Source of the DNA: Rhizophagus irregularis
Lineage: Eukaryota
DNA length: 64,000 nt
Reading direction: 5' to 3'
NCBI RefSeq assembly: GCF_026210795.1
Contig: NC_089436.1
Coordinates: forward strand, 1-64,000
The notes beneath the pieces are model-generated. The model did not search any database and was not told the origin of the DNA. It worked only from the letters and a program-made list of their open reading frames with translations. A program made the position numbers and the translations under genes. Shown here piece by piece: positions 29,221-47,460 of the stretch. Position 1 is the first letter of the stretch. Each line of letters begins with the position of its first letter.

Positions 29221-32200
29221 GGGTAGAGAAATCGCTATAATTAATTTTTATTATAGTAAAATGTCCAAAAAAAAAAAATTCTGTAATACGATTTCATTGC
29301 AATACCAACTTTTGGTAATACTTAACAAAAAAGGATAAAATTTACATGGTTAGAAAGCCACGGGTCTGAACTACTATTTTTTAACTTAAAAAGATATATT
29401 CGTTTAAAAACTTTTTTGAAAAACTTTCATATGAAGTTTTAAAATGATCATGAATGTCTATATGTTTTTGGCGAATGTGAAATAAAGAAAATTATTGGGT
29501 TCCACATTTTTGGTTCATTTTTGAGTTGACGCGTCATATAAGTCTTTTCTAATTTTAGAAACAAATTTTATTACATTATTTTATACATTATTTTATAAAA
29601 TATACATATATTTATCTTCGAGAATGGCAAAGCCACATTTTCCAATTCTTTTCCATTACTATTGCAGTTACACCTTCAATAACACCAACTATGTGAATAT
29701 TTGTTTGCAACGTATTTCCATTTGGATTTGGCCGGTACAAGTTTATCATTATTTTTACCATTCCACGTATTATAAGCCAGTCTAGCAAGTGCTGAGCGTC
29801 TGCTTTTGTACGGACAATTTTTTTTCGTGTTTCATGATAAATATTCAATGAGGTAAGCTCTTCATTATCACACTTGAGTTGACAATAAACCTGTATGATA
29901 TCTTTTGGTGAAATTAATTTTCCACTTTCACGCAGCTTATTTATTATTTCTTCAACCACCCCTACCATTTTGATAGCATCAGTTTTTACATCAACTTCAT
30001 GTACTAGCTCAGCTTGTACGCGTAAGCAGTTGTCACAATGTGCACATGGAGGACTTAAATTATCACCATTCCATGCAAAATATTCGGCAAGCATTTGCTC
30101 TCTACAGATATATTGTTCTTCACAAAAATGAACAACTTCAAATATTTTTTCACATGCTTTGGCCAGGTATTCTTTTCTTTTATTTGCCTCAAAACTATCA
30201 TTCATATCTTCAGTTATACTACAAAATATATTTTTAATTAAATCATAATATTAATTATATTTCTTTACACAATTAATACTTACGATTCTCTACTTTGTGT
30301 TATAATTGTATAATTAGTGCAAATATCATGGCGGGTATAAAAAATTATACACTTCGCGGGATTATGGTCTCTTCCCGCTCTTCCAGTTTCTTGTACAAGA
30401 TTGCCTATTTTAAAGGGTAAGATTAGTTTTATTAATAATGCTATTATATTTATTTCTTTGATATAATAGTAGTGTCTTACCTATACTCAATGGAAATGAA
30501 TAATGTATTACCAAACGAACTTTTTTATCATTAAGACCCATACCAAAAGCATTAGTTGCAATTATAAGTTGGATTGTATTCTCTTTCCATGATTTCAATT
30601 TTTTTTTTTCTTCACTGTCTAAGGAACTATAATACACAGCCATTGGTAATCCAAGGCCAGATTTTTCCTGAAGTTGCTCATAAACATCATCACATATTCG
30701 TACTGTTGGACAGTAAATAATGCATTTCCCTTCATTTAATTCTTTTAATAGGGTAATAATTTCTCCAATGGTTTTTTCCTTAGTACTTTTAGGGTGCATT
30801 TTCATTGTAAGTTCTGGACGTGAAAAAGATAACCCTCGAACAAAAGCCACATCATTTGAAGCAAGTCCGAGATTCTCCAAAATTAGATAAGCATCAGATT
30901 CCTTGCAAGTTCCCGTAAGCATCATAATTGGACTACTTGGAAAGAATGTTGAAATTTTTCTTAATTTACTCCAGGATTCTCTATATAAGTTAAGTTTAAT
31001 ATATCAAATGAAATTTTTAAATTAATATTTGAATTATATCTTACCTAAAATGCTTGCATTCTATAATGCAATGCACTTCATCTATTACAAATGATACAGG
31101 TGCATATTTTGCGAAATTTAAAAGCATTCTGGTAAATGAACTATTGTTGATAAAGCTTTCTGCAGTTATATATAAGATTTTAATCAACCCAATAGCGATC
31201 TCAGAAAAGACTTTTTCAAAATATTGTGGAGGTTGATGCTTTCCGGTATAGATGCTAGCACATCCAATTCCAGCAGCAATTGTTTCGATCTATAGAAATA
31301 TTAAATTATAATCTTTCTTTCATTAATTGTAGTAAATAATCAGTTTAACTTACCACTTGATCATCAATTAAAGATACTAATGGACTTATTACAACAGTCA
31401 AACCTTCGCGTAAAATTGCAGAAATCCAATAACACATTGTTTTTCCTGCACCTGTACGCATTGAGATAAAGGTATGTTTTCCATTTACATATGATGATAT
31501 TGCTATTTCCTGCATATCTTGAAACTCTTGATATCCAAACATTTTTACAAGTATATCATATGATGTAGGTGGATTAGCTATTAAATTTTGTGGTGGTGGT
31601 ATATATTGTTTATCTGGAAATTCCTGATACCATCCATATTTGAAACAAAATTCATGGTATCGACATAAGCCTAATGGAGAATACTTTGGAAATGCTTTAC
31701 AAGCCAAACATTTCTGAATTTTTTCAAAATCAAGTATATGTTTGGCAAATGTAGGTTCAAATTCTTTAGCTTTGATTTTTTCTTGAACATTACGTCCATA
31801 AGGTACGAAATCCTAAAGAAAATATTTTTTATATTATTTATTTATTTTATTTATTCAATTTTGAATTAGCATATGATGCTCACTGTACCTTATCCCAATC
31901 AAATGTTTCCAAGTTAGTTTTTTGTTCTTGGATTTTTTTGCCTCGTTCTTCATTTCATTTAGCAATATCATTAGAATTTCTTTGGTTTTGTTTTTTTCGT
32001 TCTTCGGCTATTTTACTAATATTTTTCTCATCAGTTTCAGAAAAATATGGAATATTACATGCTGATCGGGCAATTTTCAGCATATTTAACAAACCATTGT
32101 TATATTGAAGAACAGCTAGAGCATGTCGAGTACTATAGGTTTTTCAATAATCAATTTTTTTATCTTGAAAGCATAATTTAACTCGATTGAATGCTTCATT

Positions 32201-34953
32201 ATATGATGTTTTAATGTGAGTAATTAAGCTCTGTTTTGTTGGTATATAAAAGCATTCTTTGAGAAATTGACGAAACTTCTCTCTTTGATTAGATGTATAT
32301 TCTTTTAAATGTGGTGCTTTTAATTGAATATCAGGATTTTCTTTTCTCCAACATACTTCATCCCAACAAAGACTATGATCATCTGAAAGGTGAGCAACAA
32401 GACCATCAATTTGTACTTTTTCTAATTCAGCATCGGATACAGTAATTTTATTTTCATCAAGTTTTCGTCCACTTGCTGCATAGACACATGAATTGTAATA
32501 GGTCATTATCGTATTTTCATATTCTTTCCACATGGAACTTTTTGCTGCAACATAGAATAATTAATAATTGAGAATCAGAATAAATAAAACATTTAGCAGT
32601 TTATTAATTATTTATAATTAAAATGAAAATAATTACAACTTTTTACATTCTATTCTATTACATAACTAATGTAAAATATGAGTAAAAAATATTTGCAAAA
32701 AAAAATAATTTTCTATCAAAAAAAAATTATAATAAAATAAAGCTTAAATGATCAGCTAGCTGCATACTAATGACAAAAAGATAATCTAAAATCGTTAGTA
32801 CTTAAGATTGTTTGTTACGTTAAACTGTTACGTTAATATTATGTTATTGGTAAAAATACTTAAATTACCTTCAATAACTTACCAATCTTTGCTCTAATAT
32901 TTTTGCCAATATGTTTTAAATCCGCATATACTTTGCTCACACATGGAATATTATTTAAAGTCTTATTTGAATTTAGATCACCATCTACTCCAATATCTAA
33001 AAGTACTTCAGCTGCTTCTAATACTGGAACAATTTTTTCAATAATTCGTAATAATATTGCATGTTCCATTTGCCGTGACGTCTTTTCATGATTGCCATGA
33101 AAAACCTCATATTCTTGGCCATTTCTTTTTTTTAATTTACGTGGTTTTTCAGCAGTAGCAAAAGCAATAACAGGTTTGTGATCATATCCTATTATAAAAA
33201 AATTGAATTTGTTTTTATTTTATTAAATATTGACAAAGTCTTTTTTCTTTTACCATCAAGATTTCCTTGATATATTAGTTCTCCACTAGCCTGGTTTGCA
33301 TTCCGACAGTGAGACCAAGAGCAATCAAAACTAGTGGGTAATATTCTTTCCCCTTTTGCTTTAATATGTGCAATAGCTTTAGTTAATGCAATTTGTGCAC
33401 TTATCTCCGCTTCATCATTTATTTTTTCCAAATATTCATTTTGTTTATTATGATAATGACCTTTTGATGATTGTGCTGTTATACCTATTATAGAAAATAT
33501 AGTTTGAAGTTGTTGCCTATTAACGCCACCAACAAGTCCTGCACCTGCTGCAAGAGAAGAGAATTGTGCATTAGGTGATTCATTACTATATTCCGTAATT
33601 CCTTGACAAATCTTACACTTAATTTTAATTTGAAGATTATGACCGATTCTATGAACATCCAGTTTTTTTTTAGACAAATCAAGGTTGTGGTACGTTAAAC
33701 AAGGTTGTGTATATATGCTGGTAAGATACTGATCTGTACTAACGAATATAGTAGATCCAATATTCGTTTCCTCCAATGTTTTTTGTATCCAATTATTTAA
33801 TAATTCTTGATCTTTTTCTTCATGTAGCTTATATTTCAAGTTTTTCATATATTCATTATTGGTCTTAGTTTCGCTTGATCCGTTTACGTGATGTGTCTTC
33901 TAATTTTTTCAAAGCTTCATATTCAACTGCAAGTGCTAAAGTTGCTTCTGGAGTTAATTGCATTCCTGGTTCTTTGATTTCAATTCCATGACAAATTATT
34001 GGCGGTTGGGAGATTACTGATACTTTTTTTAGTAGTTTTTCTCCTTTCTTTTGCATAGTAGTAGTTAATTTAGCAATTTTATTTTGAGATTTAGTTGCAG
34101 TAATGTTAAAAAGATGTGGATAAATTGAGTTTACTTTTAATTGTAAATCATAAATTATATTAGGATCACGCAAACCAAGAACGTCAGGAATAGAGATTTC
34201 TCCCTGATAGTTTTATGTATTTTTTCATGCTTACAAAAAAATCAGAATTTGCTCCCGAATATATAAGTTCAGACATTTCCACATTTTCATAAATTTCCCA
34301 ACTATATATAAGGTGTTCTCCATTATTACTTTGAATTTCTAAACGTATATATTGACCACAAAGTTTTCCAATTACACAATAACCAGGGAGTAGAGGAACC
34401 CATGGAGGAGTTGGTATATTTTCTTTTTTAGTAATGGCACGGTAATATGGATTAGAGCAATACTCTTTACTTGTTTGTAGTTCAGCATGGATAGAAAGAA
34501 CTTCTAGTGTTCTGGATGTATCACGAAACATATATCCACCGTTTGCTCTTCTGAATATTTTCAGTGCAGGATTATAAGTTTGCATATGCTGTACCCAGTT
34601 AGGAAGTCTAAAATGTTTTAATAATTGAAAAACTATAGAAAAACATTAAAGAATTTCTCAATTTCTTAATAATAAATATTACTTTTCTTGCTTTTTACCC
34701 TTAGTTGACGTTGTCATTGTGACTAAAAAACTTTATTTCGCAAGAAAAAAGTTACAAGACACGGTTAATTAATATAGCCGGTATTTCTAATTTTGTATAG
34801 CCAGCTATTTTTAGTACAAGACGCGGTAACTTATTTAGCCAATATTTTTATCTGCACGTCGTGTTTAAGGAGATAAACAAATCCGGGTTTTTGGAACCAA
34901 AAACAAATGGACATTTATTATAATAAAAATTAATTATAACGAATACTCTACCC
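29221..34953 (-). mobile_element. Complete Kolobok-superfamily DNA transposon carrying a helicase (KolobokH type)
   Basis: ~46-bp TIRs GGGTAGAG(AAA/TAT)TCG(C/T)TATAATTAATTTTTATTATA..AAATGTCC at 29221-29266 and 34909-34953. TTAA target duplication at 29217-29220 and 34954-34957; purine-purine termini. Confidence 0.92.
29612..34717 (-). pseudogene. Kolobok DDE transposase followed by RecQ-family helicase (multi-exon, several frameshifts/stops)
   Basis: Transposase: SFDCSWSHCRNA, TSRQMEH, IGVDGDLNS, ADLKH, HLSDDHSLC, TSYNEAFN. RecQ: MRTGAGKTMCY, VISPLVSLIDDQ, VIDEVHCI, MLTGT, IIYCPT, ATNAFGMG, QETGRAGRD, CREQML...CAHCDNC zinc module. Confidence 0.9.
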
Positions 34954-35536: not shown

Positions 35537-35940
35537 TACTGGATATTGTATTTGTTTTTATTGTTTTTATTAACTTTACAACTTTATACTAGATACAGCG
35601 TTGTCAACCTTACATACGGTAGACCCCACACCCAACTTAAAAGAATACACTCCAGTAGGTTAGATGTCAGTTATAAGTCACACTACGAAAATACCATACA
35701 GGAAAAATGAAGGTTATGGAAAATCCTGCTAATATTGCTTACGATCACTCAGTGACATTCACCAATGCAAAACGGGTATACAGTCAACTCTCTTTATAGT
35801 CACACATTTGGGACAGTCCATATTTGGTGATTATAAAGAGATGTGACTATATAAAAAATTTCTTATGTTAGTATATCATAATTCCGGCCAAAAATTAACA
35901 TAATTTTGGCCAAAATTATACTTAAAACTTTATTGTATCG

Positions 35941-36446
35941 TAACTCCTCCAATATTAATCGTAGAGAGATGATCTTACCGCCATTCGATTCGTCTTGATG
36001 AGACGGTTCTAATGGTATAAAATACGTCGAAATCCAATCACTAGATTAATTTCCGAAATTAAAAAAATATTAATGGTTTTTGTGTAATAACTCTGTCAAT
36101 ATTGATCCTAGAAAGACGATCTTACTACCATTCGATTCGTCTTGATGAGACGAATCTAATGGTATATGATACATCGAAATCCAATCACTAGATCAATTTC
36201 CGAAATTAAAAAAATATTAAATGGTTTTTAAGTAATAACTCCGTCATTATTGATCACAGAGAGATGAGCTTACCACCATTCGATTCGTCTTGATGAGGCG
36301 ATTCCAACGAGCTATTAATCGTCTTTTTACAATCACTAGGTACCGAGAAATCTAGCAAAATGTTAAATGGCGCAGTAAACGTAAATCAAGAAATATTATA
36401 ATGCCGATGTTTAACATTTTGTTGAATAACTCGTCAGCCAGTGATC
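35941..36446. repeat. ~147-bp internal repeats with GATTCGTCT-TGATG-AGACGAATC hairpin; the 4th unit continues at 45743-45790
   Basis: Three full units plus a fourth (TAACTC..TGATC-target-ACCACCATTCGATTCGTCTCAGTGAGACGATTC) split by the insertions. Confidence 0.9.
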
Positions 36447-36588
36447 GGAAAAGGATAAAACTTAAAAACTCTCTCCCGTTCTGCTCACTTGACAATATTT
36501 ACGAAAAAATAAAAAATTTTTTCGGAGTTTTTTATTACTTTTTCTTTATAATTTCTTTATTTTAGATAACTACTACGACACTTTACAA

Positions 36589-38609
36589 ATGGGTAAAGAT
36601 AACAAAAAGAAAAATAACCAGTCTAACAAAGATACTACATCTAAACGTCCTGCCTCTAGCTCTCCAACTGGCAACGTTTCTGGTCAAGGTTCCTCTATGT
36701 CTGGCCCTTCGAACCCTCCACCTTCGACCACCTCTACTAATAAACGTACCAGAGTCAGTGCTGATGACTCTGTCATGGATGTTGATAAACCTCTCACGCC
36801 TCCTGGCCCTGTTGAGACAACTTCCGCTGAGATACCCTCTCAACCCAATACCTCCTCCTCTCGAAGCTTCGCAACACGCCCCTGCTAACAACAACGATAA
36901 AGGCAAAAGCCCTGAAATTACTCCCGCAGTCTCTTTCCCTGAACGTGCTGCCTCTCCGGACGCGTCCCAAGCTGCAGTACAATCTCAACCTACACTTTTC
37001 TACGCCTCGGCCGCTCCTAATGACGTCGATGGCTTTTGGAATCACTTCGCTTCGAACCGCGACGCGTGCGACGCGGTTGATCGACAACTTTCCTTGTTCT
37101 CCTCTTATGGTAGTCGTGCCACGTGTAGTGGATCCAACGATTTGAAGAGGATCATCGTCCACTTCCGAAAAAGGATGATCTTGACACAGCCACAGCTTCC
37201 CCTATGGAATCTTTGTTTGGCTTGCATTTCCATGCATATGATCCCCAGGCTATTAAGGCTGATGAACACGCGCGTACCCTGGTGGTTACCGATATCCCCC
37301 TTTTTCTAACTGACGCTCTTTTGCGTGGTACCTTTTCTCGTTACGGCAATATTACTCGTTGCCATACCCGTTTATCTAAACTTTATCGTACTGCATACAT
37401 TACCTTTGAATCTACTGGTGCTTTACAGAACCTCGACTCTACCTGGGCGTCCTTTGTGGAGGACATTGTTTGCGTATCTGCCCCGCTACTTTCTCACCTG
37501 AACAACGCGCTGAAAGACGCGCTTATGTTGCTTTACTTGCCGGTCTCCCGCGTGGCACTGTAGCGGTCGATCTTGCTGATATCGCCGATGAAATTTCCGC
37601 TAAATCTATCAATGTTCCCTTCTCTATGAATTCTTACAATCCCAAACCTTACGCCTATTGCCACTTTGCCTCTGAAACGGCTATGGAAAATGCTAAATCT
37701 ATTTCATGTGCCCTCAAGAAAGTTGGCCTTACCTGGCATTCTCCGGATGAAGTCACTTCTCTTTGTCATCGATGTGGTCGCCCTAATTGTAACCCTGATC
37801 AATGTGGTTCTTCATCTAGACCTAATCGCCCTTCTCGCCCTTGGCAATCTAATGATAAATTACGTGCTTTATATAATAAGCATCTACCTCCTTCTCATCC
37901 TGCTAAACGACATAACCGTTTTGCCCGCCCTGATAACAATAATGATGGACAAAGCCGTACCAATGCTTCTCGCCATCGTTCTAAATCCAGACCTAATAAC
38001 CGACAACAATCTCGTTCTCGTTCTCGACGTCGACCATGGAATCGTGACAATGTTAATAATAATAATAATAATCAACGTCGTCGTATTCCTGATGCAAATG
38101 AACTTGATCACTATGCTGATGGCATGGATGTTACATACCCTGCTCCTCCTACTGTGCTTACTGATTGGAAATCTATTGGTGCTGCTCTTGAAAAAGTAGT
38201 TGAAGAATTAGCCCTTCTTACCACACAATTTGCTTCCATGAACAGCCGCATTACTAATTTGGAATCTGCTATGGCTGCTCGCACTCCTGTTCCTGGACCT
38301 TTTGTCACTAAACCTCCTTCCTACATCCCTTCCTCTATGCAAGGATGGGATGATACAGTGAATCGAACTGATAATAATATCCTCGTAGATGTTAATTCTC
38401 CCCCTTTGCAATCGACAAGTGGTTTTTCCCCGATTCCTCATTTTGCTCCCATTCCGCCTTCCAACGTCGCTCCTTCCTCCCCTATTGATATGGAACAGCG
38501 TCTCTCCTCTCTTTCCGATACTGTTGCCTCTTTGGCTGGCTCGATTAAAGAAGGAATCCAACAAAACAACCTCATCTTAGCTCGGCAACAAGGCCAAGCT
38601 AATCAATAA
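36589..38609 (+). CDS. LINE ORF1 (gag-like; RRM-like domains, Cys/His knuckle, Arg/Ser/Asn-rich region, coiled coil); about 3 frameshifts
   Basis: Overlapping ORFs 36589-36888, 36758-37309, 37204-37563 and 37470-38609. RTLVVTDIPL...FSRYGNI...AYITF; ALLAGLP...YAYCHF; CHRCGRPNCNPDQC. Confidence 0.85.
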
Positions 38610-38658
38610 TTGTTCTCTTTTTCCCCCTTCTTTATTACCGATTTATCAGTGTGTAATA

Positions 38659-41600
38659 ATGATGGACAACAATAAACATAATTTTTCCCCTCACCCCTCT
38701 CCCCTTATCAAATTTGGTCAATTAAATGTTAATGGTTTATGCTCCCCTGTTCGACAACAACATTTGCTTAATTTTTTTCTTCACTCCTCTTTTGGTGCTT
38801 TATCTATTAATGATACGCGTCTTTCCCCTTCAAATGCTAAATTTATTTTCAAAAATGAACACTCCCAACATCACTTTAAGTCCTATTGGGCTTGTTCATC
38901 TTCTTCTTCTCGTCCTCATGATGGTGTTGGTATTTTGTTACGTAATCCCCTTCATAAACATGTTCAAACAATTGATCCTTGGAACGGTCGACTTCTTAAA
39001 TTAGATTTGTTCTTTCATCAAACTAAAATTTCTATTATTTCTATATATCATCCCCCTTCTGGTTCTGTTCATCAATCTATTTGCAATGATCTTATTGCCA
39101 AACTTCTTTCTTGGCTCGATTATGCCCGAGCTAATAATTATTTTGTAGTTATTCTTGGCGATTTCAATGCTGATGTAATCGCTCATTCTAATTATTCACC
39201 TAATCATTTTAAGCTTCTTCGCTTGCTTTCTTCTCGGTTTTTTACCGATCATCAAGCTCACTCTTCTACACATGGTCCTGATCCCACTTTCTTTCATGAT
39301 AATGGATCTTCTAGACTGGATTATATCTGGTCTTCACCTGGTTTTCCTGCCCCTGGTCTTTTTTCGCAAGTGGTTACTTGCCCGGATCTTTTTGATCGTC
39401 CTTTCACAGATCACAAAGCTCTTTCAACTGTTTTTGACTTTAGTTCTTGCCTGGCTATCTTGGCTAAATCTCGTCTTAAACAAAAAAAAGAATTGCGTAC
39501 TATTTTCTCTTACGCTTCCACTTCAGTTGAACAATGGAATAATTTTACCACTGAAGTTGATGATTCTCTTGGAGTTTATTTAGATAGACAATATCACCCT
39601 AATTTTGATTTCTCCTCTCTTTCTCTTGATCGTATGTGGCATGCATTGAAAGCTGCCATTATTAGTGCTGCAATTGAAACTTTACCCTTTCAAAAAGTCT
39701 CCAATACACACCGACATTCGTACTCTCCTGAATTAACTAAACTTATTGCTATTAACAAGTTTTTAGATCGATTTTTATATCGCCTTACTACTCGTCGTTC
39801 TAATCGGCCTACTCAGACTGCGCAAATGATTGCCGCTTTGCCTTCCCATCTTGAAAATCTTGCATCCTTACTCCCTGATTACTCAGTTCCTACCTATTCT
39901 ACTACCCCTGCTTCTGTATTTAAATCGTTTTTACGATCACAGAAGAATTTAGTTTCTGCCTTTTTATCTACTAAATTCGCCCAACACCTTACGGACTCAG
40001 TGGAATATTATACTGCACTACGTGATGAACACTTTTCGAACTCGCTCGGCACCTTTATCGATTCTGCCTTATCAGTAGAAAAACGTTCAATTGTTCTTGA
40101 CCGTGTCCTGGTCGTTTTGGACTCAACTCCTACTTTATTAACGGATCCTTCGGATATTAAACATGCGGCTGTTTCTCATTTTCAATCAATTGTTTCTCCT
40201 CCGTTGGTCCACTATTCTTCCATCACTTCATTTCCCGCCCGATGGCAACAAGCTTACACTCCTCTTACAAATGTGTCTGCTTCATTATATGATCCTGTTT
40301 TGGCGCCTATTTCCCTACAAGAATGGTCTGCTGTGATTTCCTCCATGCCAAATAACAAAGCTTCCGGCCCTTCAAAAATTTCTTATGAGATGATTAAACA
40401 TCTGTCCGGTGAAGCCTTGGATTTCTCTCTTTTACTGGCCAATACCTGCCTTTCTCGCGGTGATATTCCTGCTGACTGGCGTGAAGCTGTGGTTTATCCT
40501 ATTCCTAAACCTCACGAATTTGATGCTCAACTCAAGAACACTCGACCTATTACTCTTCTGGAAACAGTTCGAAAATGTGTAGTTAAGGTCGTCACGAATC
40601 GTCTCTCCAACATTCTTGCTGATAATAAAGTTCTCCAAGGTGGTAACTTTGCTGGCTTACCTGGTGGTTCTACTGATGTCCCTATCAAAATGCTTGATGC
40701 GATTATCCATCAACATAAACATGACTCTACTGATGATCAGGAACTATGGATCGTTTCTCAAGACATCTCTAAAGCTTTTGATTCTATGGATTTAAATATG
40801 CTTAAATTAGCTTTAGATAGGTTACATATCCCTGCACTTTTAGTGCGATTTATTTTAAATCTTTTTACACGACGAAATAATAAGATAATCACTTGTCATG
40901 GCGACACAGCTGCTTATAGAGTACATGTTGGTATCGATCAAGGAGAAATCATTTCCCCTCTTCTTTGGGTTATTTATTTGGATCCCTTACTTACTGTTTT
41001 GAATCAAGAAGCACGAGATCCTTTTATTTTAAAATCTTCAGCTCTTTTACATTATTCTCCACTTGAATTTGAACAACATTCTTTACCAGTTTCACATTTA
41101 ACGTTTATGGATGATTCTACACTTATTGCCTCTTCCAAATCTGGAATAGTAGACCGTCTTTCTATTACTGCTGAATTTTATACTTTAAATAATGTTCAAG
41201 CTAATTCAGCAAAATATGTTCTTCTTTCATCCTCTTCGCCTTCTTCAAATATTATTTTTGAACTTTTACCTTCTTCTTTAGTTTCCGATACTTCTCTTTC
41301 CCTTTCCTCTTTATCTCTTAATACTTCATTTCGTTTCTTAGGAGTTTGGTTTTCCTTGTCCGCCTCTTCCGCCTTTGTTTTGAAACAAGCGCGCTCCATG
41401 GTTAAAGATATGGCTGCTCTTCTGGGCCCGAAGAAATTATTAGCTCAACATGTGGCCTATCTCTATAATGCTGTCCTTCTTCCGCGATTGGAATTTCGTC
41501 TTCAAACTACCCTTTTCTCTGAAAGTACTATTCAATCAATTGTTAAACCTATGTTTTCAGTACTTCGAAGAAAAGCTGGTCTTGCTACGACTACTCCGTT

Positions 41601-44046
41601 GCCCTTGTTATTTCTCAAACTTCCTTTTTCGATTCAAAATGCTTTCTATCGCTTTCTTTCTTCCCATATGGCATCTTGGCAAAAAATTTTCACTCATCCT
41701 GATTTCAAAGACTTTGCTCTTTATGCTATCTCCTTTCTTCAAGGATATTTGGGTGCTGAAAGTTGCCCGACTACTATTAACTTAGAACCATGGTCGCAGA
41801 TCGTTTCTTTGCGAACGCACACTTTGTTCAATTCGTTATTGTTTTCTTCGCGTTTGAACATCACGTGGTCTCTCTCCTTCCGGCCTCCGAGGCATGATCT
41901 GCAACCTGCTCTGCCACTCCGGTCTATTCTACCTCATTCCATTTTTCAATCGAGTTGGAAACTTTGGAAAAACTTGAATATATTTGTGCTTGCTCAGTTG
42001 GTTTCTCCTTGTGGACGTTACCTTATGAATTGGCCTGACCTTCGTTATCTTGGCATCGTTGGTCGTAAAGGACGGATCCCTAATTGGTTTACTTTTATCA
42101 ATAATAATTTTCTCTCTTCTTCTTCTTCTACTTTACTTTTATCTTCATATTTTATTAATTCTTCTTTTACTTTAGCTTCTCCTTGTTTATTAGATCATAC
42201 TGTTAAAGATTATTCTTTTTATCCTCAATGGGCTATTACTTTTGACTCTGCTACCCAAACTTTATCTGTTGGTCGTGTGTGTATCACTTATAAGAAACAA
42301 AACTCGGCTATTATGTCTCATTGGCTTCCTGTATCTACCTCGGCTGATGAACGATCCTATGACCCTTGTCCCGGTTGTGCTCTCAACATTCCCGCCTTAT
42401 CCATGAAATCTGCCATCAGACAACGCTGTAATAGCGAGAAATGCTTTTTTAATGTAACTCTATCAGATACTGTGGGCTATCCTACCAGAAATGCCAAAGT
42501 TTTCGCGGCTTACCTTCCCATTACTCTATCTACTTCATGGAGTTATGCGACTTCCTTGGCTCTTGTTCAATTTTCAAACGCGTCTCCTGTTCTTTCTCCT
42601 CTCTTTAAGGATAGAATCGATAGAATTGAAGACACTATTTTACCACTTTCGGTGCAATCTTTGTACACAGATGGTTCGTTCCATCCTGCCAATGATTCTT
42701 CGCCCTCTTCCATGACTTCTGCTTGGATTGCTCTTGATGATGTTGGACTTGTTCTGGAATCTTCTTCCATGCACCTCCCTTCTTACTTTCCTTCCGCTTT
42801 GCGTTCTGAAATTTCTGCTGTTCTATTAGGATTGAACGCCCTTTCCCGTGATTCGTCAATCTTTATTCATACTGATTGTAGTCAGTTAATTTCACTATGG
42901 ACATGGTTTGTTGATGCCCCTTTCTCACCGAAGTTGCTCCGAGAACCTAATCATCTTCTTTGGCTTTCTATTCGACAACTTATCATGGATCGTAATCTTA
43001 ATGTCGAATTGATTAAAGTCCCTGCTCATGGCGATGATATCTACAATATACAAGCGGATTCTTTGGCAAAAGATGCTCATTCGTCTTTACAACCCACTAC
43101 TCTACTTTCAACATTTTGTTATGCTCCATGCTTGTTGACTTTTAACTCCTTACCTATTGACGTGAATATTCGACATTTTCTCCGCTCTATTGCAGATGCT
43201 CGTGCTCTTTTATCTTTCTGTTCGCTAGCGCGTTTTACTGCTCTTGGTTCTCCTTCACTTTTTGATTGGGCTGGTATATATTTTTGCCTTTCACAAATTA
43301 AAGGTTTTGCTTCACATAGGAATGGTCGCCCTGAATTTTGGATCTTCCGCATTAAACTTCTTTTGGATATGTTGCCTACTTTAACTACTCTTCAACAACG
43401 TAAACCTTACTTATATTCTCCTGACTGGCTCTGTCCGCAGTGTAATTCTGCTCCTGAAGATTTGAACCATCTTTGGACTTGTCCTTATATTTTACCAGAT
43501 TTAAATCCCTGTTTAACACACCGGTCTGAAGTCATTAAATTTAGAGATTCTTGTTTATCTTCTTTCCTATCCTTGAAATCTTTGGATAATTCCTTTCATA
43601 CCGAGTTCTTTGCTTTGGATTGCTGGAACTATGAAGCTCCTTCTTCATCCTGTCTTTGGCTTACTCGAGGATTGTTGCCTGCGCATTTAACGGCATTTTT
43701 GAATCAATACTTTCCTCTCTCTGTTATATACAAGATTATTTCTCCCCTTCTTAATGACTTCCAAGTCGAATTATATGGTGAAATTTGGCTGTGTCGGAAT
43801 GTTCTTTTCCATGCTTGGGAGGAGTCGCAGGGTATCTCGGCTGCTTCCAAATTACGTGGCCCTTCTACAAATTCTTTCCCTAATACTACTTCTCCACAAC
43901 AACGTAACTCTTCTTTGGCGTCAGTTTCTCAGGATTCCTGGATTTCTTGGATATCCTCTTCTATAATTCGGGGTGGATCTTGGATCTCGCACTTGGATTT
44001 TCTGCGCCGCTTAACAGTTCAACCTCTTAGGATTTCTTTCTGGTAA
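38659..44046 (+). CDS. LINE ORF2: AP endonuclease, reverse transcriptase, RNase H, C-terminal CCHC finger (1795 aa, intact)
   Basis: QLNVNGL, ILGDFNA, RLDYIW, TDH (APE); KASGPS, RPITLL, DISKAFDS, GIDQGEIISP, FMDD, FLGV (RT); YTDGS, RSE, HTDC, KVPAH..N..AD.LAK (RNase H); CPQC...HLWTC. Confidence 0.98.
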   Translation: MMDNNKHNFSPHPSPLIKFGQLNVNGLCSPVRQQHLLNFFLHSSFGALSINDTRLSPSNAKFIFKNEHSQHHFKSYWACSSSSSRPHDGVGILLRNPLHKHVQTIDPWNGRLLKLDLFFHQTKISIISIYHPPSGSVHQSICNDLIAKLLSWLDYARANNYFVVILGDFNADVIAHSNYSPNHFKLLRLLSSRFFTDHQAHSSTHGPDPTFFHDNGSSRLDYIWSSPGFPAPGLFSQVVTCPDLFDRPFTDHKALSTVFDFSSCLAILAKSRLKQKKELRTIFSYASTSVEQWNNFTTEVDDSLGVYLDRQYHPNFDFSSLSLDRMWHALKAAIISAAIETLPFQKVSNTHRHSYSPELTKLIAINKFLDRFLYRLTTRRSNRPTQTAQMIAALPSHLENLASLLPDYSVPTYSTTPASVFKSFLRSQKNLVSAFLSTKFAQHLTDSVEYYTALRDEHFSNSLGTFIDSALSVEKRSIVLDRVLVVLDSTPTLLTDPSDIKHAAVSHFQSIVSPPLVHYSSITSFPARWQQAYTPLTNVSASLYDPVLAPISLQEWSAVISSMPNNKASGPSKISYEMIKHLSGEALDFSLLLANTCLSRGDIPADWREAVVYPIPKPHEFDAQLKNTRPITLLETVRKCVVKVVTNRLSNILADNKVLQGGNFAGLPGGSTDVPIKMLDAIIHQHKHDSTDDQELWIVSQDISKAFDSMDLNMLKLALDRLHIPALLVRFILNLFTRRNNKIITCHGDTAAYRVHVGIDQGEIISPLLWVIYLDPLLTVLNQEARDPFILKSSALLHYSPLEFEQHSLPVSHLTFMDDSTLIASSKSGIVDRLSITAEFYTLNNVQANSAKYVLLSSSSPSSNIIFELLPSSLVSDTSLSLSSLSLNTSFRFLGVWFSLSASSAFVLKQARSMVKDMAALLGPKKLLAQHVAYLYNAVLLPRLEFRLQTTLFSESTIQSIVKPMFSVLRRKAGLATTTPLPLLFLKLPFSIQNAFYRFLSSHMASWQKIFTHPDFKDFALYAISFLQGYLGAESCPTTINLEPWSQIVSLRTHTLFNSLLFSSRLNITWSLSFRPPRHDLQPALPLRSILPHSIFQSSWKLWKNLNIFVLAQLVSPCGRYLMNWPDLRYLGIVGRKGRIPNWFTFINNNFLSSSSSTLLLSSYFINSSFTLASPCLLDHTVKDYSFYPQWAITFDSATQTLSVGRVCITYKKQNSAIMSHWLPVSTSADERSYDPCPGCALNIPALSMKSAIRQRCNSEKCFFNVTLSDTVGYPTRNAKVFAAYLPITLSTSWSYATSLALVQFSNASPVLSPLFKDRIDRIEDTILPLSVQSLYTDGSFHPANDSSPSSMTSAWIALDDVGLVLESSSMHLPSYFPSALRSEISAVLLGLNALSRDSSIFIHTDCSQLISLWTWFVDAPFSPKLLREPNHLLWLSIRQLIMDRNLNVELIKVPAHGDDIYNIQADSLAKDAHSSLQPTTLLSTFCYAPCLLTFNSLPIDVNIRHFLRSIADARALLSFCSLARFTALGSPSLFDWAGIYFCLSQIKGFASHRNGRPEFWIFRIKLLLDMLPTLTTLQQRKPYLYSPDWLCPQCNSAPEDLNHLWTCPYILPDLNPCLTHRSEVIKFRDSCLSSFLSLKSLDNSFHTEFFALDCWNYEAPSSSCLWLTRGLLPAHLTAFLNQYFPLSVIYKIISPLLNDFQVELYGEIWLCRNVLFHAWEESQGISAASKLRGPSTNSFPNTTSPQQRNSSLASVSQDSWISWISSSIIRGGSWISHLDFLRRLTVQPLRISFW

Positions 44047-44315
44047 CGGACTGGATTTTTGGATGTTGGATAGTTGACTCACACTGGCCTTCGGGTAAAG
44101 TTGGGGTATGCGATTCTGTAATAGTTCAGTTTTTCTTTGCTTTAAATATATTTTAGTTTAGATTTCTTTACTTGTATGAGTCGTGAAGCTACTCTTTTTA
44201 TTTTTTATTAGTTTATTTTCTTATTTTTGTAATATTGTTCGATCACTTTTCGAAGTCCAAAGTATAAATAAAAGATAAAGTCATAAGACTGTTTGCACAG
44301 GAAAAGGATAAAACT

Positions 44316-44729
44316 TGAGTGGTCACTACAAAGTATACCACTTGGGGTAAACAACTGTACTATCGGTACTAGGTAATCGCGGGCTGTAGTGGCCTTTGAG
44401 TGAGACTTAGTACCTAAAATGGTGGTATGGAAGGGTACTAGATGGTTGATGTTACCTGTCGAAAGTCCTCCATGAAAGTAGATGCTCTCTAAAGGTCGTA
44501 AAATAAATTGAGTATTAGTATCATGCAATGGGTATAGGATGAGTAGGCGGCGTGTACCTAGCTTCAGATCAGCCTAAAATGGCCCGATGGGGGATGTCTT
44601 CTATAGTGGTGCTGTTACCTGAGGAATTAAGTACTCGGTTTAATGGTTGCCCATTGAAGATGATAGGACACAGACCCGAGATTAGTCTCATAAGAGGCAA
44701 TGGGTGGTCTGGCCGTAAACACTTGCAAA
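44316..44729 (+). mobile_element. 5'-truncated copy of SINE-like non-coding retroelement
   Basis: Near-identical to 45313-45726, flanked by the 16-bp target on both sides. Confidence 0.85.
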
Positions 44730-44745
44730 GGAAAAGGATAAAACT

Positions 44746-45726
44746 AGGGTTGGTCACCCTATCTCGGTGGTTAGTCACTGAGACCCTCATTAAGCCTGAG
44801 TATGGTGAGGTCGCAGGTTCGATTCCTATGACCACGGAAATAAAAAGAATTTTACTGCGGACGCTACAACCAATAGCGTGAAGGTACAGGGATTAGTGTA
44901 GTTGGACTGCATCGTGTGGTAATTAGTGTGTACGGTTAGGCCGCGCATTTCAACTAAGGGTCGCTGGTGTCCTTGCGTTCCCTATGAGGCCATTGGCATG
45001 CGCGCAGTCCTGTCCTTGAGGTCACTACTATACCTTGGGGGACTTCCTGTCCGGGTGGTCACTCTACGATACCGCTTGGGGTCAGTAATGGCTAGATGGT
45101 TGTCCTAGATGGTAAAGCTGAGGGTGCAATGTCTTAGTGGTAGTTAGACCTTCTGTTAGGGGTCTTAGGGACCAACCAAGGTGTTCGTGCACAGAACAGG
45201 TAGCATGGCTATGGGGTTCGATTCCCTACTCCTTGGGTCCTGGTTGGTGATCCCTGGTGGTTGATACCCACCATAAGGGGTGATCCTGGACAGATGCCTG
45301 CTACTTCCTGTCCGAGTGGTCACTACAAAAGTATACCACTTGGGGTAAACAACTGTACTATCGGTGCTAGGTAATCGCGGGCTGTAGTGGCCTTTGAGTG
45401 AGACTTAGTACCTAAAATGGTGGTATGGAAGGGTACTAGATGGTTGATGTTACCTGTCGAAAGTCCTCCATGAAAGTAGATGCTCTCTAAAGGTCGTTAA
45501 ATAAATTGAGTATCAGTCGATCATGCAATGGGTATAGGATGAGTAGGCGGCGTGTACCTAGCTTCAGATCAGCCTAAATGGCCCGATGGGGGATGTCTTC
45601 ATAGTGGTGCTGTTACCTGAGGAATTAAGTACTCGGTTTAATGGTTGCCCATTGAAGATGATAGGACACGACCCGAGATTAGTCTCATAAGAGGCAATGG
45701 GTGGTCTGGCCGTAAACACTTGCAAA
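44746..45726 (+). mobile_element. ~980-bp GC-rich SINE-like non-coding retroelement with two tRNA-type B boxes
   Basis: GGTTCGATTCC at 44816-44826 and 45215-45225, A-box-like TGGCTAGATGG/TGTCTTAGTGG, many stem-loops and no convincing ORF. Flanked by the 16-bp target (44730-44745, 45727-45742). Its 3' end TTGCAAA resembles the LINE 3' end TTGCACA. Confidence 0.8.
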
Positions 45727-46399
45727 GGAAAAGGATAAAACTACCACCATTCGATTCGTCTCAGTGAGACGATTCTAACAAGCTATGGTACATCTTTGTA
45801 CGATTATTAGATGCCAAGTTATTTAATATATTCTTTATATAACTGTGATTATAAACGGTTCTTTTTAATATAAGATTTTTGAGGATAGGTGTGATAGTGA
45901 CTATAGATAGATTGTGACTATATAGGATAGATTTTAATAATAAAGTGTTTTGAACATTCAACTGGTGTGACTATATAGTAGAATGTGACTATAACGGGAG
46001 TGACTATAGAGGGAGTTGACTGTATTATAAAGAATATTCCAAATTGCGGTTTGATATCGAACGAACGCCAAATCAAGTGAAACGATAGAATAGACTATCA
46101 CATAGTATTTTAAATCAGGAAGATTTTTCGAATCAACCTAAACCCTTCTTGTTACATGGACGCAATATAAAAATGGTAAAAAATTCAATTCCATAGTATT
46201 TAAACAGATACAATACGTCACCGAAAAATATTTTAAAGAAAAAACACGCTCGGAAGGCATGAATGTGATTTTTCGTCATATACCACATCCATCGCATTCA
46301 TTAATAAGAATTCGGGACAATTTCCTTAATAAATTTTTTTTAAAGTACAAACCCTGATCAGTAAAATTTTCTTATTACTAACGTCCAATTTAAATTACG

Positions 46400-47460
46400 A
46401 TCATCAATAAAAATTCGCGCGAAATTTTCTTAATAGTATTTAATTTTTAAAGCGCAAAATACCGCTTAATTTTAATGTTCAAAGTCCGATCTACTGCTTA
46501 ATTTAAGAAAAATTCGCGAGAATTTTCCTTAATACCGCTTAATTTTAATGTTCAAAGTCCGATCTACTGCTTAATTTAAGAAAAATTCGCGAGAATTTTC
46601 CTTAATGCCGCTTAATTTTAATGTTCAAAGTCCGATCTACTGCTTAATTTAAGAAAAATTCGCGAGTATTTTCCTTAATATCGTTGAATTTTTAGGTCTG
46701 ATTATTTTAAGTTCAAACTATAAGAAATCTGTATATGGAAATGATACATTTTATATATATTTGATATACGTTTTTATAAATTCCGTATTAAATTCCGTAT
46801 ACGGTAAAAAATAAAAATAAAAATAAATTCCGTATACGGTAAACTAAAAATCACGATTTCAAGAAAAATTCTTGCAAATTTTTCTTGATACCGCTTATTT
46901 TAAAGTTTAAATAAATTGAAATCACGATTTTTTAAGAAAAATTCTTGCGAATTTTTCTTGATACTGCTTATTTTTAAAGTTTAAAGACCGATTAGTAAAC
47001 TAAAATCACGATTTTAAGAAAAATTCTTGCGAATTTTTCTTGATACCGCTTATTTTAAAGTTTAAATAAATTGAAATCACAATTTTTTAAGAAAAATTCT
47101 TGCGAATTTTTCTTGATACTGCTTATTTTTAAAGTTTAAATAAATTGAAATCACGATTTTTTAAGAAAAATTCTTGCGAATTTTTCTTGATACTGCTTAT
47201 TTTTAAAGTTTAAAGACCGATTAGTAAACTAAAATCACGATTTTAAGAAAAATTCTTGTGAATTTTTCTTGATACCGCTTATTTTAAAGTTTAAATAAAT
47301 TGAAATCACGATTTTTTAAGAAAAATTCTTGCGAATTTTTCTTGATACTTCTTATTTTAAAGTTTAAAGACCGATTAGTAAATTTAAATTGCGATCACTA
47401 AGAAAAATTCGTGAATTTACTAATCGCGATCACTAAGAAAAATTAGCGAGAATTTCTTAT
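46400..47460. repeat. Tandem arrays built on the palindrome AAGAAAAATTC-N(4-5)-GAATTTTTCTT (probable CACTA subterminal repeats)
   Basis: 78-bp units at 46460-46680 and alternating ~73/82-bp units at 46845-47400. Confidence 0.9.

What the first reader, a model, noticed from the sequence alone, without database searches (positions are those of the whole stretch)
36447..45742. Three retro-insertions stacked at one 16-bp target: a site-specific LINE and partner SINE system
Seen: the exact 16-mer GGAAAAGGATAAAACT occurs four times (36447, 44300, 44730, 45727). The arrangement is target-LINE-target-truncated SINE-target-long SINE-target. Deleting everything between the first and last copy restores the fourth unit of the host 147-bp repeat (TGATC-target-ACCACCATTCGATTCGTC). 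One SINE copy is 5'-truncated with an intact 3' end, as expected for target-primed reverse transcription. None has a poly(A) tail, and the 3' ends are TTGCACA (LINE) and TTGCAAA (both SINE copies), with TCATAAGA shortly upstream in both. Established: sequence-specific APE LINEs (R1, Tx1 types) form such tandem stacks, and SINEs borrow LINE 3' recognition. Inference: this LINE targets a multicopy DNA-transposon repeat as a safe harbour and mobilises the non-coding element to the same nucleotide. The intact ORF2 makes it a candidate site-specific integration enzyme.
Basis: partly seen in the sequence, partly recalled or inferred. Interest (0 to 1): 0.85.

Follow-up and report, generated by a model that had tools for sequence, protein, structure and literature searches.

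The report
Site-specific LINE/SINE pair in Rhizophagus
In the mycorrhizal fungus Rhizophagus, a jumping gene (LINE) and a non-coding partner element land again and again at exactly the same 16-base site inside a common small DNA transposon; the LINE's enzyme is likely what inserts both, a habit described in frogs and crocodilians that my literature searches did not find reported for this fungal group.

Summary
The 16-mer GGAAAAGGATAAAACT occurs exactly four times, bracketing a 7.8-kb LINE, a 5'-truncated partner element and a full 981-bp partner.

- **Organism:** Rhizophagus irregularis or a close relative.
- **LINE:** ORF2 is intact (1795 aa; endonuclease, reverse transcriptase, RNase H). ORF1 carries at least three frameshifts.
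- **Host sequence:** a 962-bp Tc1/mariner-like MITE with TA duplications, CAGT-type inverted repeats and 147-bp internal repeats. The 16-mer fills the same 16-nt slot as in the ordinary units.
- **Other loci:** 22 public gene models translate the partner's 3' end. Thirteen read past its terminus, and all 13 continue into the 16-mer or a variant differing at one residue. Behind it come full or variously truncated LINEs, partner copies, or the MITE's right flank.
- **Other runs:** contigs from four sequencing runs show further truncated copies behind the 16-mer, plus empty sites.

This is therefore a real target-specific LINE/SINE system that stacks. It closely parallels crocodilian Tx1-Mar/SINEU-3 in a mariner element (PMC4494074). 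I rate it a new member of a known kind, apparently unreported in fungi.

The LINE clade, the enzyme's specificity and the SINE's transcription remain untested.

The parts
35779..35803 (+). Left end of the host MITE: TA duplication (35779-35780) and inverted repeat CAGTCAACTCTCTTTATAGTCAC (35781-35803).
   Evidence: It is the inverted match of 46000-46022 (21 of 23 identical by my reading; BLAST reports 92% over 26 nt).
35930..36371 (+). Three ordinary 147-bp tandem units of the MITE. None carries an insertion. Their slots read GTAGAGAGATGATCTT, CTAGAAAGACGATCTT and ACAGAGAGATGAGCTT.
36447..36462 (+). 16-mer copy 1: the target slot of the diverged fourth unit, and the left duplication of the LINE.
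36463..44299 (+). LINE, 7837 bp, ending TTGCACA with no A tail. Its first bases, TAAAAACT, resemble the end of the target.
36589..38609 (+). ORF1 region of the LINE (weak RRM hit, one Cys-rich knuckle), broken by at least three frame changes near 36850, 37200 and 37460.
   Evidence: In one search, ORF1 of relatives aligns in four successive frames.
38659..44046 (+). Intact ORF2, 1795 aa: AP-type endonuclease (residues 21-252), reverse transcriptase (615-897), RNase H (1335-1473), and a C-terminal Cys/His motif.
   Evidence: (95% identical to a cluster of 143 member sequences).
44300..44315 (+). 16-mer copy 2.
44316..44729 (+). 5'-truncated partner element: one extra T, then the last 413 nt of the partner, ending TTGCAAA.
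44730..44745 (+). 16-mer copy 3.
44746..45726 (+). Full-length non-coding partner (SINE-like), 981 bp. It has two weak tRNA-like modules (44748-44835 and 45176-45236), each containing GGTTCGATTCC, and a hairpin with loop AUAA at 45682-45695. It ends TTGCAAA.
45727..45742 (+). 16-mer copy 4, followed by the host right flank.
45743..46024 (+). Right part of the MITE: the rest of the fourth unit (ACCACCATTCGATTCGTCT...), GTGACTATA subterminal motifs, the inverted repeat 46000-46022 and the TA duplication 46023-46024.

Best explanation
A LINE with an intact endonuclease/reverse-transcriptase/RNase H ORF2 and two copies of a ~1-kb non-coding partner sit head to tail at one 16-bp site of a Tc1/mariner-like MITE, and the same 16-mer follows all 13 other partner copies that could be read, so the pair is target-specific; the LINE family's ORF2 protein is inferred (likely, not shown) to nick this site and copy either RNA into it by target-primed reverse transcription.

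The remaining steps are inferred:
- The bottom strand would be nicked at the left edge of the 16-mer (top strand GTGATC|GGAAAAGG).
- Reverse transcription would start at the element's 3' end, which ends TTGCAMA and has no A tail.
- The top strand would be cut 16 bp further right (AAAACT|ACCACC), so the 16-mer is duplicated on both sides of each insert.
- Each insertion therefore leaves two copies of the landing site. Later LINE or partner insertions stack there in any order, often 5'-truncated and with a few extra bases at the 5' joint.
- The three ordinary repeat units share the right flank but lack the 16-mer, and they are empty in this window. Recognition should therefore involve the 16-mer itself.
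- The partner is predicted to be a tRNA-headed SINE that borrows the LINE's proteins.
- This LINE copy has a frameshifted ORF1 and would depend on other copies for it.
For: **In the window**
- Four exact 16-mers and the stated layout.
- One partner copy is 5'-truncated with a complete 3' end.
- ORF2 is open, with endonuclease, RT and RNase H domains.
- The host is a MITE with TA duplications and CAGT-type inverted repeats.
- The 16-mer fills the host repeat's slot.

**Other loci, from gene models**
- The search was scored only on the partner's last 62 codons, excluding the 16-mer. It returned 22 R. irregularis gene models.
- Thirteen read past the partner's terminus, and all 13 continue into the 16-mer: 9 exact at protein level and 4 differing at one residue.
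- Behind the 16-mer come: the full LINE 5' end (3 cases); LINEs truncated at about 41690, 43708 and 43741 (3); the full partner (2); a truncated partner at about 45291 and 45412 (2); the MITE right flank up to 45764 (2); and the protein's end (1).
- One model, P0131, reads partner, 16-mer, truncated partner, 16-mer, then a LINE truncated at about 43822.

**Other runs (four runs from four studies)**
- 11243, 6199, 7012 and 2225 contig pieces were laid on the partner.
- Among the rows shown, nine different joints run from the end of a 16-mer to inner partner positions (44828, 45039, 45227, 45363, 44658, 44415, 44538, 45520, 44590). A tenth lies behind a diverged 16-mer.
- Joints also show LINE end, 16-mer, then host right flank (X1, X4), and LINE end, 16-mer, then full partner (X1, X7).
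- Empty sites occur (X2, 7 contigs).
- No listed loose end lies directly behind the partner's 3' end.

**Shared 3' features:** the terminal heptamer TTGCAMA, and a hairpin with loop AUAA in both 3' ends.
Against: - No enzyme assay exists. That this LINE mobilises the partner rests only on the shared site, the shared 16-bp duplication and the shared end heptamer.
- Overall 3'-end similarity is not above chance.
- The gene-model sample is small and filtered by length (61-196 aa). One search shows that 0 of 13 excludes a non-target share of 50% or more (P 0.005-0.016), but not 10-20%.
- The LINE's own 3' flank was seen at few other places: four contigs.
- One X4 contig and three X7 contigs show a LINE-like 3' end followed by TCATAATCAACAAA... 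instead of the 16-mer.
- Many joints have short sides (18-30 letters).
- ORF1 of this copy is broken.
- A TTTT tract at about 44850, just behind the first tRNA-like module, would hinder polymerase III. The tRNA likeness is far below Rfam's threshold (18.8 against 47 bits).
- No single contig spans this stack.
Confidence: 0.8

Rival explanations
1. The 16-mer is not a duplication made by staggered nicks. Instead it would be carried in the RNAs as read-through of the downstream site. The nicked target's bottom strand would anneal to this tail, so insertion is homology-guided 'homing' to any existing 16-mer. The structure produced is the same.
For: - Every LINE and partner copy seen is followed by the 16-mer.
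- The 3' ends proper share little sequence. The primer end (...CCTTTTCC) cannot pair with ...GCAAA, so a shared read-through tail would explain co-targeting.
- LINE 5' ends carry partial copies of the target's end: window 36463-36470, and P0123 and P0133. This suggests transcripts include flanking target sequence.
- Co-transcription with the target is discussed for other specific LINEs (PMC4494074, passages).
Against: - It still needs a site-specific nick.
- Empty host sites hold the 16-mer, and it sits in the host repeat's slot, so a plain duplication suffices.
- No transcript ends were seen, because the read-laying tool's calls were exhausted.
Confidence: 0.2
2. The partner and LINE reached high copy number mainly by hitch-hiking. 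A few insertions into one MITE copy would then be spread by DNA transposition or segmental duplication of the composite, so the shared flank would not reflect enzyme specificity.
For: - The MITE is very abundant, and ordinary units dominate the loose ends.
- Kojima raised the same possibility for SINEU-3 (PMC4494074, passage).
- Full-length partner behind a 16-mer recurs; cluster P0132 has 16 member sequences.
Against: - At least a dozen different 5' truncation points of partner and LINE abut the 16-mer.
- Neighbours come in all orders: LINE, partner or host flank.
- Different extra bases occur at the joints.

These require many independent insertions at one nucleotide.
Confidence: 0.05
3. The stack at this locus is an assembly artefact: repeats collapsed or chained wrongly.
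For: No contig spans the whole stretch. The elements are high-copy, which invites misassembly.
Against: Each junction type in the stack is seen independently in other assemblies' gene models and in contigs of four runs. The two partner copies differ at 9 of 433 aligned columns.
Confidence: 0.03

Closest known systems
Tx1-Mar LINEs with SINEU-3 in the Mariner-N4_AMi DNA transposon of crocodilians (Kojima 2015, PMC4494074; abstract and passages read)
   Same: - A LINE group and a SINE share a target inside an abundant non-autonomous mariner-type transposon.
- The expected duplication is 16 bp.
- Tandem SINE copies sandwich a duplication.
- Truncated copies show the insertions are independent (86 of 88 associated with the mariner).
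- The shared target is the argument for mobilisation.
   Different: - Animal against fungus.
- SINEU has snRNA heads and A tails. Here the head is weakly tRNA-like and there is no A tail.
- The paper describes the Tx1 clade as found in animals. This LINE has an RNase H domain and its clade is unresolved.
- The crocodilian copies are old (85-91% identity to consensus). Here the two partner copies are 97.9% alike and ORF2 is open.
Tx1 (Tx1L) of Xenopus laevis inserted in Tx1D, a non-autonomous piggyBac element (as stated in PMC4494074, passage; primary papers not read)
   Same: An AP-endonuclease LINE whose target is a specific site in a multicopy DNA transposon.
   Different: Different host transposon superfamily. 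No partner SINE is mentioned in the passage read. From recall, its duplication is short (4 bp) against 16 bp here.
R1 of arthropod 28S rDNA and the short internally deleted partners of R1/R2 (recalled; PMC3414825 appears only in an earlier finding's note and was not read here)
   Same: From recall: a precise, fixed-length duplication (14 bp for R1), no A tail, tandem stacking, and non-autonomous parasites at the same site.
   Different: - The target there is an rRNA gene, not a transposon.
- The partner here shows no similarity to the LINE, so it is not a deletion derivative.
- From recall, R1 lacks RNase H.
CNL1 of Cryptococcus and MoTeR of Magnaporthe (PMC12810828, passages read)
   Same: Fungal non-LTR elements with target preference that build arrays.
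   Different: Those are placed in the R2 superfamily, prefer telomere repeats or their own copies, and have variable duplications (0-13 bp). No partner SINE is described in the passages read.

Membership tests
AP-endonuclease LINE (non-LTR retrotransposon) | ORF2 with an AP-type endonuclease and a reverse transcriptase. | tested here: met
   Exo_endo_phos 6.6e-9 (residues 21-252), RVT_1 1.2e-16 (615-897), RNase_H 8.8e-8 (1335-1473); the RT matches human L1 ORF2p at 3e-20.
AP-endonuclease LINE (non-LTR retrotransposon) | Hallmarks of target-primed reverse transcription: a constant 3' end, variable 5' truncation and flanking duplication. | tested here: met
   LINEs truncated at about 41690, 43708, 43741 and 43822, and full-length 5' ends, all lie directly behind the 16-mer. 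The window copy is flanked by the 16-mer on both sides.
Target-specific LINE/SINE pair | Independent copies lie at the same nucleotide of the same target. | tested here: met
   Partner: 13 of 13 readable 3' ends among 22 gene models, plus nine further joints. LINE: 7 5' joints behind a 16-mer, plus four contigs with LINE end followed by the 16-mer. No full census was possible.
Target-specific LINE/SINE pair | The endonuclease or ORF2 protein cleaves the target specifically. | not testable with these tools
   Needs biochemistry.
Target-specific LINE/SINE pair | Empty target sites exist. | tested here: met
   run X2: 7 contigs with ...CTCGTCAGCCAGTGATC directly before the 16-mer and right flank.
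SINE (polymerase III, tRNA-derived head) | A tRNA-like 5' head with internal promoter boxes. | tested here: inconclusive
   tRNA-clan matches of 18.8 and 16 bits (gathering score 47; E 0.86 and 4.6). Both contain GGTTCGATTCC, which fits the B-box consensus as I recall it. ARAGORN found none. A TTTT tract lies at about 44850.
SINE (polymerase III, tRNA-derived head) | A 3' tail shared with the partner LINE. | tested here: inconclusive
   Only TTGCAMA and TCATAAGA are shared; the latter forms a hairpin loop in both. The local alignment is not above shuffles.
SINE (polymerase III, tRNA-derived head) | Non-coding and unrelated to the LINE body. | tested here: met
   No similarity to the LINE. The only protein matches are short R. 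irregularis 'hypothetical' models that run across element joints.
Tx1 clade | The RT groups with Tx1 in a phylogeny. | not testable with these tools
   No named reference sequences were available. The paper calls the clade animal. An R. irregularis repeat library lists L1-Tx1, I and Tad1 labels.
I/Tad1-type LINEs | Endonuclease-RT-RNase H ORF2, with a type I ORF1 (RRM followed by a zinc knuckle). | tested here: inconclusive
   The ORF2 architecture is met. For ORF1, the RRM hit is below threshold (18.1 against 20.7 bits) and there is a Cys-rich knuckle. Type I ORF1 occurs in the I, Jockey, R1, Tad1, plant L1 and L2 clades (PMC4120745, passage), so it does not decide. No phylogeny was done.
Tc1/mariner-type MITE (the host) | TA duplication, terminal inverted repeats, no transposase, many copies. 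| tested here: met
   TA on both sides, and 23-nt repeats beginning CAGT. The 962 bp without the stack contain no ORF of 180 aa or more. Its right part attracts the most loose ends from ordinary units in all four runs.

The most novel reading that the evidence does not exclude
An RNase H-bearing LINE of an early-diverging fungus has independently evolved strict recognition of a 16-bp site in a MITE. It funnels itself and a very abundant 1-kb partner almost entirely into this self-renewing landing pad, possibly helped by target sequence carried at both ends of its RNA. Its open 1795-aa ORF2 would then be a second, R2-unrelated natural enzyme for RNA-templated insertion at a defined sequence. 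The MITE would act as a genome-wide sink that shapes repeat architecture in mycorrhizal fungi.
Probability: 0.35. Interest if true: 0.7.

Novelty: new member of a known kind. Interest (0 to 1): 0.55.

Why it matters
**For enzyme discovery.** Target-specific LINEs are the natural models for RNA-templated, site-specific DNA insertion. R2 proteins are already being developed for transgene insertion at rDNA (PMC11371274 and related papers; search listing and abstracts only). This system offers a defined 16-bp target, an open ORF2 and a natural non-coding cargo of about 1 kb, which makes it directly testable.

**For mycorrhizal genomics.** The system explains how a very abundant SINE-like repeat and a LINE family are distributed: stacked in one MITE slot.

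**For annotation.** Many short 'hypothetical proteins' in public R. irregularis annotations are translations across these element joints.

Tried and rejected
**Sources that were unavailable or gave nothing**
- No whole genome is held for this window.
The second and last call covered 44229-45820 only. The LINE 5' joint, RNA runs and transcript ends could therefore not be examined.
- Exact scans for the partner's 3' end gave 0 matches in metagenome, prokaryote-genome and viral contigs.
- ORF2 gave no relative in metagenome contigs.
- A protein search through the minus-strand frame of the partner's head, meant to show what precedes full-length 5' ends, found nothing.
- Earlier notes of this scan held nothing on this genome or sequence.

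**Partner and LINE classification**
- The representative-library search returned 15 proteins: 13 already seen and 2 further spliced chimeras.
- Rfam at E up to 1 over 11 kb and ARAGORN found no tRNA. Only a relaxed search gave weak matches.
- The fold of the partner's head is not better than shuffles (z -1.39).
- Pfam found no extra DNA-binding domain in the ORF2 linker or C-terminal parts.
- The PDB search gave RT matches only, with no endonuclease match, so the clade stays open. The protein atlas was uninformative.

**A possible counter-example, considered and rejected**
- Models P0136-P0140, P0143 and P0144 leave the partner at ...DDASQE and then continue into different sequences. I considered whether this is a non-specific subfamily.
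- I rejected it. The break falls at the position of TCATAAGAG|G inside the element, not at its end, and P0143 continues into a long unrelated ORF. These are most likely predicted splice donors.
- P0122, P0135 and P0142 likewise leave at GGCC|GTAAAC.

**Literature searches**
- Four searches for a target-specific LINE in Rhizophagus or Glomeromycota found none.
- The one Glomeromycota transposon paper holding those words concerns Cryptons (passages).
Full report
**1. Observation**

The 16-mer GGAAAAGGATAAAACT occurs exactly four times, all on the + strand, at 36447, 44300, 44730 and 45727. No further match appears at up to two mismatches, the chance expectation is 0.12, and 0 of 100 shuffles reach four.

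Reading the sequence gives this order:
- host ...GTGATC, then the 16-mer;
- a 7837-bp element (36463-44299) ending TTGCACA, then the 16-mer;
- one extra T and 413 nt (44316-44729) ending TTGCAAA, then the 16-mer;
- a 981-bp element (44746-45726) ending TTGCAAA, then the 16-mer;
- host ACCACCATTCGATTCG.

A self-comparison of the region against the window finds only one internal repeat. Positions 44317-44746 equal 45314-45743 at 97.9% over 433 columns. The short copy is therefore a 5'-truncated version of the long one with a complete 3' end. Neither element has another copy in the window.

**2. The LINE**

The long element has an open ORF2 of 1795 aa (38659-44046). It carries an AP-type endonuclease, a reverse transcriptase and an RNase H domain. 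The translation also shows a C-terminal Cys/His motif and the FMDD motif of the RT; the role of that motif is recalled.

ORF1 is not intact. ORF1 parts of related proteins align to 36646-36840, 36860-37306, 37171-37488 and 37446-38000 in four successive frames, which matches the separate ORFs. This copy therefore has at least three frameshifts. The RRM hit is below Pfam's threshold (18.1 against 20.7 bits).

All named best relatives are Rhizophagus irregularis proteins. The best is 95% identical and stands for a cluster of 143 member sequences. The window therefore comes from this fungus or a close relative, and the LINE family is multicopy.

Against solved structures, only the RT matches (human L1 ORF2p 3e-20, then R2). 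No extra domain was found by Pfam in the long linker and C-terminal parts.

The clade is unresolved. Endonuclease-RT-RNase H with an RRM-plus-knuckle ORF1 fits I/Tad1-type elements as I recall them. However, type I ORF1 is widespread across clades (PMC4120745, passage), and no named references were available for a tree.

**3. The partner**

The partner shares no sequence with the LINE, so it is not a deletion derivative.
- Rfam and ARAGORN find no tRNA at normal thresholds.
- A relaxed search gives two weak tRNA-clan matches, at 44748-44835 (18.8 bits) and 45176-45236 (16 bits). Each holds GGTTCGATTCC, and the first starts 2 nt into the element.
- A TTTT tract follows the first module at about 44850.
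- A 22-nt motif recurs three times.

I call it SINE-like. A tRNA-derived, polymerase III origin is plausible but not shown.

Its 3' end and the LINE's share only the last heptamer (TTGCAMA) and TCATAAGA. The best local alignment scores 16, against a shuffle mean of 17.2. In both predicted folds TCATAAGA forms a small hairpin with loop AUAA. That is a lead, not evidence.

**4. The host**

The stack lies in a 962-bp element (35781-46022 minus the 9280-bp stack).
- It is bounded by TA on both sides.
- Its 23-nt inverted repeats begin CAGT (CAGTCAACTC..TATAGTCAC; 21 of 23 identical by my reading, and 92% over 26 nt).
- It has GTGACTATA subterminal motifs and three regular 147-bp tandem units, followed by a diverged fourth.

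This is a Tc1/mariner-type MITE.

In the three regular units the 16 nt between ...TGATC and ACCNCCATTCG read GTAGAGAGATGATCTT, CTAGAAAGACGATCTT and ACAGAGAGATGAGCTT. The 16-mer sits in exactly this slot in the fourth unit (8, 7 and 7 of 16 identities). Its left flank matches the regular units at 13-14 of 22 positions. The 16-mer is therefore host sequence. Units that share the right flank but not the 16-mer carry no insertion in this window.

**5. Evidence from elsewhere: sequencing runs**

No genome is held for the window. Twenty public runs hold the stretch or a part of it, 15 of them at least half of its sampled words.

- **Abundance.** 11243, 6199, 7012 and 2225 contig pieces were laid, so the partner is a very abundant repeat.
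- **Truncated copies.** Among the rows shown (15 joints with 34 not shown; 12 'letters between' rows with 15 not shown), nine different joints run from the last base of a 16-mer to inner partner places: 44828, 45039, 45227, 45363, 44658, 44415, 44538, 45520 and 44590. Some have 1-2 extra letters. A tenth joint lies behind a diverged 16-mer.
- **LINE junctions.** Joints also show LINE end, 16-mer, then host right flank (X1, X4), and LINE end, 16-mer, then full partner (X1, X7).
- **Empty sites.** Seven contigs in X2 read ...CTCGTCAGCCAGTGATC directly before the 16-mer and right flank.
- **Host variation.** Ordinary units account for the loose ends before 45742 (17 contigs in X1, 9 in X4). An intermediate slot variant also appears (X1, place 45738).
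- **No contrary loose ends.** None of the 24 loose-end rows shown (747 not shown) lies directly behind the partner's 3' end.
- **Caveats.** Several joints have sides of only 18-30 letters, contigs are short, and none spans the stack.
- **One exception.** One X4 contig and three X7 contigs have a LINE-like end followed by TCATAATCAACAAA... instead of the 16-mer. This is unexplained.

**6. Evidence from elsewhere: gene models**

Scans of metagenome, prokaryote and viral contigs found nothing, so I used public gene models as a sample of other loci.

The frame through the partner's last 62 codons was searched, scored on those 62 residues only so that the flank could not influence the ranking. Twenty-two proteins came back, and all were read and mapped on the window.

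Nine of the 22 leave the partner before its end:
- P0122, P0135 and P0142 at GGCC|GTAAAC;
- P0136-P0140 further upstream, four of them at ...SQE;
- P0141 into LINE ORF1.

These are most likely predicted introns, and they say nothing about the flank.

The other 13 read through the terminus. All 13 continue with the translation of the 16-mer:
- RKRIKL eight times and KEKDKT once (the same 16-mer in another frame);
- one-residue variants in P0126, P0127, P0132 and P0134.

| What follows the 16-mer | Gene models |
|---|---|
| Full LINE 5' end | P0123, P0128, P0133 |
| LINE truncated at about 41690, 43708, 43741 | P0125, P0126, P0127 |
| Full partner | P0129 (one extra codon), P0132 |
| Truncated partner | P0124 (about 45291), P0131 (about 45412) |
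| MITE right flank up to 45764 | P0130, P0134 |
| End of the protein | P0121 |

P0131 goes on through a second 16-mer into a LINE truncated at about 43822.

The models come from at least nine different contigs. A later exhaustive search of representatives returned 15 proteins, 13 already seen and two more spliced chimeras.

The sample has a bias: the length filter (61-196 aa) disfavours flanks with early stops. Using the window as background, 37-50% of random flanks would pass. On that basis 0 of 13 makes a non-target share of 50% very unlikely (P 0.005-0.016) and 30% unlikely (0.08-0.15). It does not exclude 10-20%.

**7. Mechanism**

*Shown.* Many independent insertions of both elements lie at one nucleotide, with a constant 3' end, variable 5' truncation, small extra bases at 5' joints, and the same 16 bp on both sides.

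*Inferred.*
- The LINE family's ORF2 protein would nick the bottom strand at GTGATC|GG.
- It would prime reverse transcription of LINE or partner RNA there.
- The top strand would be cut after AAAACT, giving a 16-bp duplication that doubles the landing site and so favours stacks.

The ordinary units are spared, so the 16-mer itself should be recognised.

Whether the downstream 16-mer is duplicated from the target or carried in read-through RNA cannot be told from structure. The LINE 5' ends carry partial repeats of the target's end: window TAAAAACT, K-L repeats in P0123, and a second KRIKL in P0133. This hints that transcripts include flanking target sequence.

That this LINE, rather than another, moves the partner rests on the shared site, the shared duplication length and the shared end heptamer.

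**8. Comparison with what is known**

The closest described system is crocodilian Tx1-Mar with SINEU-3 in Mariner-N4_AMi (PMC4494074, abstract and passages). It shows:
- an expected 16-bp duplication;
- tandem SINEs sandwiching a duplication;
- 313 of 347 full and 86 of 88 truncated copies associated with the mariner;
- mobilisation inferred from the shared target.

The same paper states that Tx1 of Xenopus inserts into a non-autonomous piggyBac element, and that the Tx1 clade is found in animals.

Fungal elements with target preference that I found described are CNL1 and MoTeR. They belong to the R2 superfamily and are aimed at telomeres (PMC12810828, passages).

An R. irregularis repeat library lists SINE, L1-Tx1, I and Tad1 labels, but the passages and table rows I saw do not mention target specificity (PMC11075540, passages and one supplementary table; PMC11952901, passages).

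Four full-text searches for a target-specific LINE in Rhizophagus or Glomeromycota found none (for the Crypton paper). Repbase entries and subscription journals were not searchable, so 'not described' is provisional.

**9. Verdict**

It is a new member of a known kind, probably the first such pair noted in fungi, and it is young enough to have an open ORF2.

Three things lower the claim. The enzyme's specificity is untested, the clade and the partner's polymerase are unknown, and the census is a small sample.

Noticed in passing
window 36463-36470; proteins P0123, P0128, P0133: LINE 5' ends are heterogeneous and echo the target's end. The window copy starts TAAAAACT right after ...ATAAAACT. 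P0123 has three K-L repeats before the common 5' sequence. P0133 repeats KRIKL. This suggests upstream target sequence in the transcript, or microhomology at the 5' joint.
   Followed up: partly
window 35981-36015, 36128-36162, 36276-36310, 45747-45781: Each 147-bp unit holds an imperfect palindrome (CCATTCGATTCGTCT ... AGACGAATCTAATGG in unit 2), starting 4 nt to the right of the insertion slot. It might be part of what the enzyme or the MITE's transposase recognises.
   Followed up: no
places 44296-44745 (runs X4, X7): One X4 contig and three X7 contigs have a LINE-like 3' end that continues TCATAATCAACAAA.... In X4 this is followed directly by a full partner 5' end, instead of TTGCACA plus the 16-mer. 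It could be a second subfamily or a second target.
   Followed up: no
protein P0121: In a 1395-nt contig from a JGI record, the partner's last ~180 nt plus the 16-mer are preceded by 31 residues unrelated to anything in the window. This is a mosaic or a different subfamily body.
   Followed up: no
proteins P0121-P0144: Public R. irregularis annotations hold many short 'hypothetical proteins' that are translations across partner/LINE/MITE joints, or splice chimeras that use GGCC|GTAAAC inside the partner as a donor. These are annotation artefacts.
   Followed up: partly
window 44842-44855: A TTTT tract lies directly behind the first tRNA-like module of the partner, like a tRNA gene's terminator. 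It is odd for an element that would need to be transcribed for 981 nt by polymerase III.
   Followed up: no
window 33192-33848 (-) and 29612-30205 (-): ORF fragments with a Mutator-like transposase domain (3.3e-7) and a RecQ zinc-binding domain (4.3e-8). The stack lies in a repeat-rich neighbourhood.
   Followed up: partly
window 46458-47445: Tandem arrays with periods of 73, 155 and 229 bp, with many inverted matches between them, begin about 430 bp right of the MITE.
   Followed up: no
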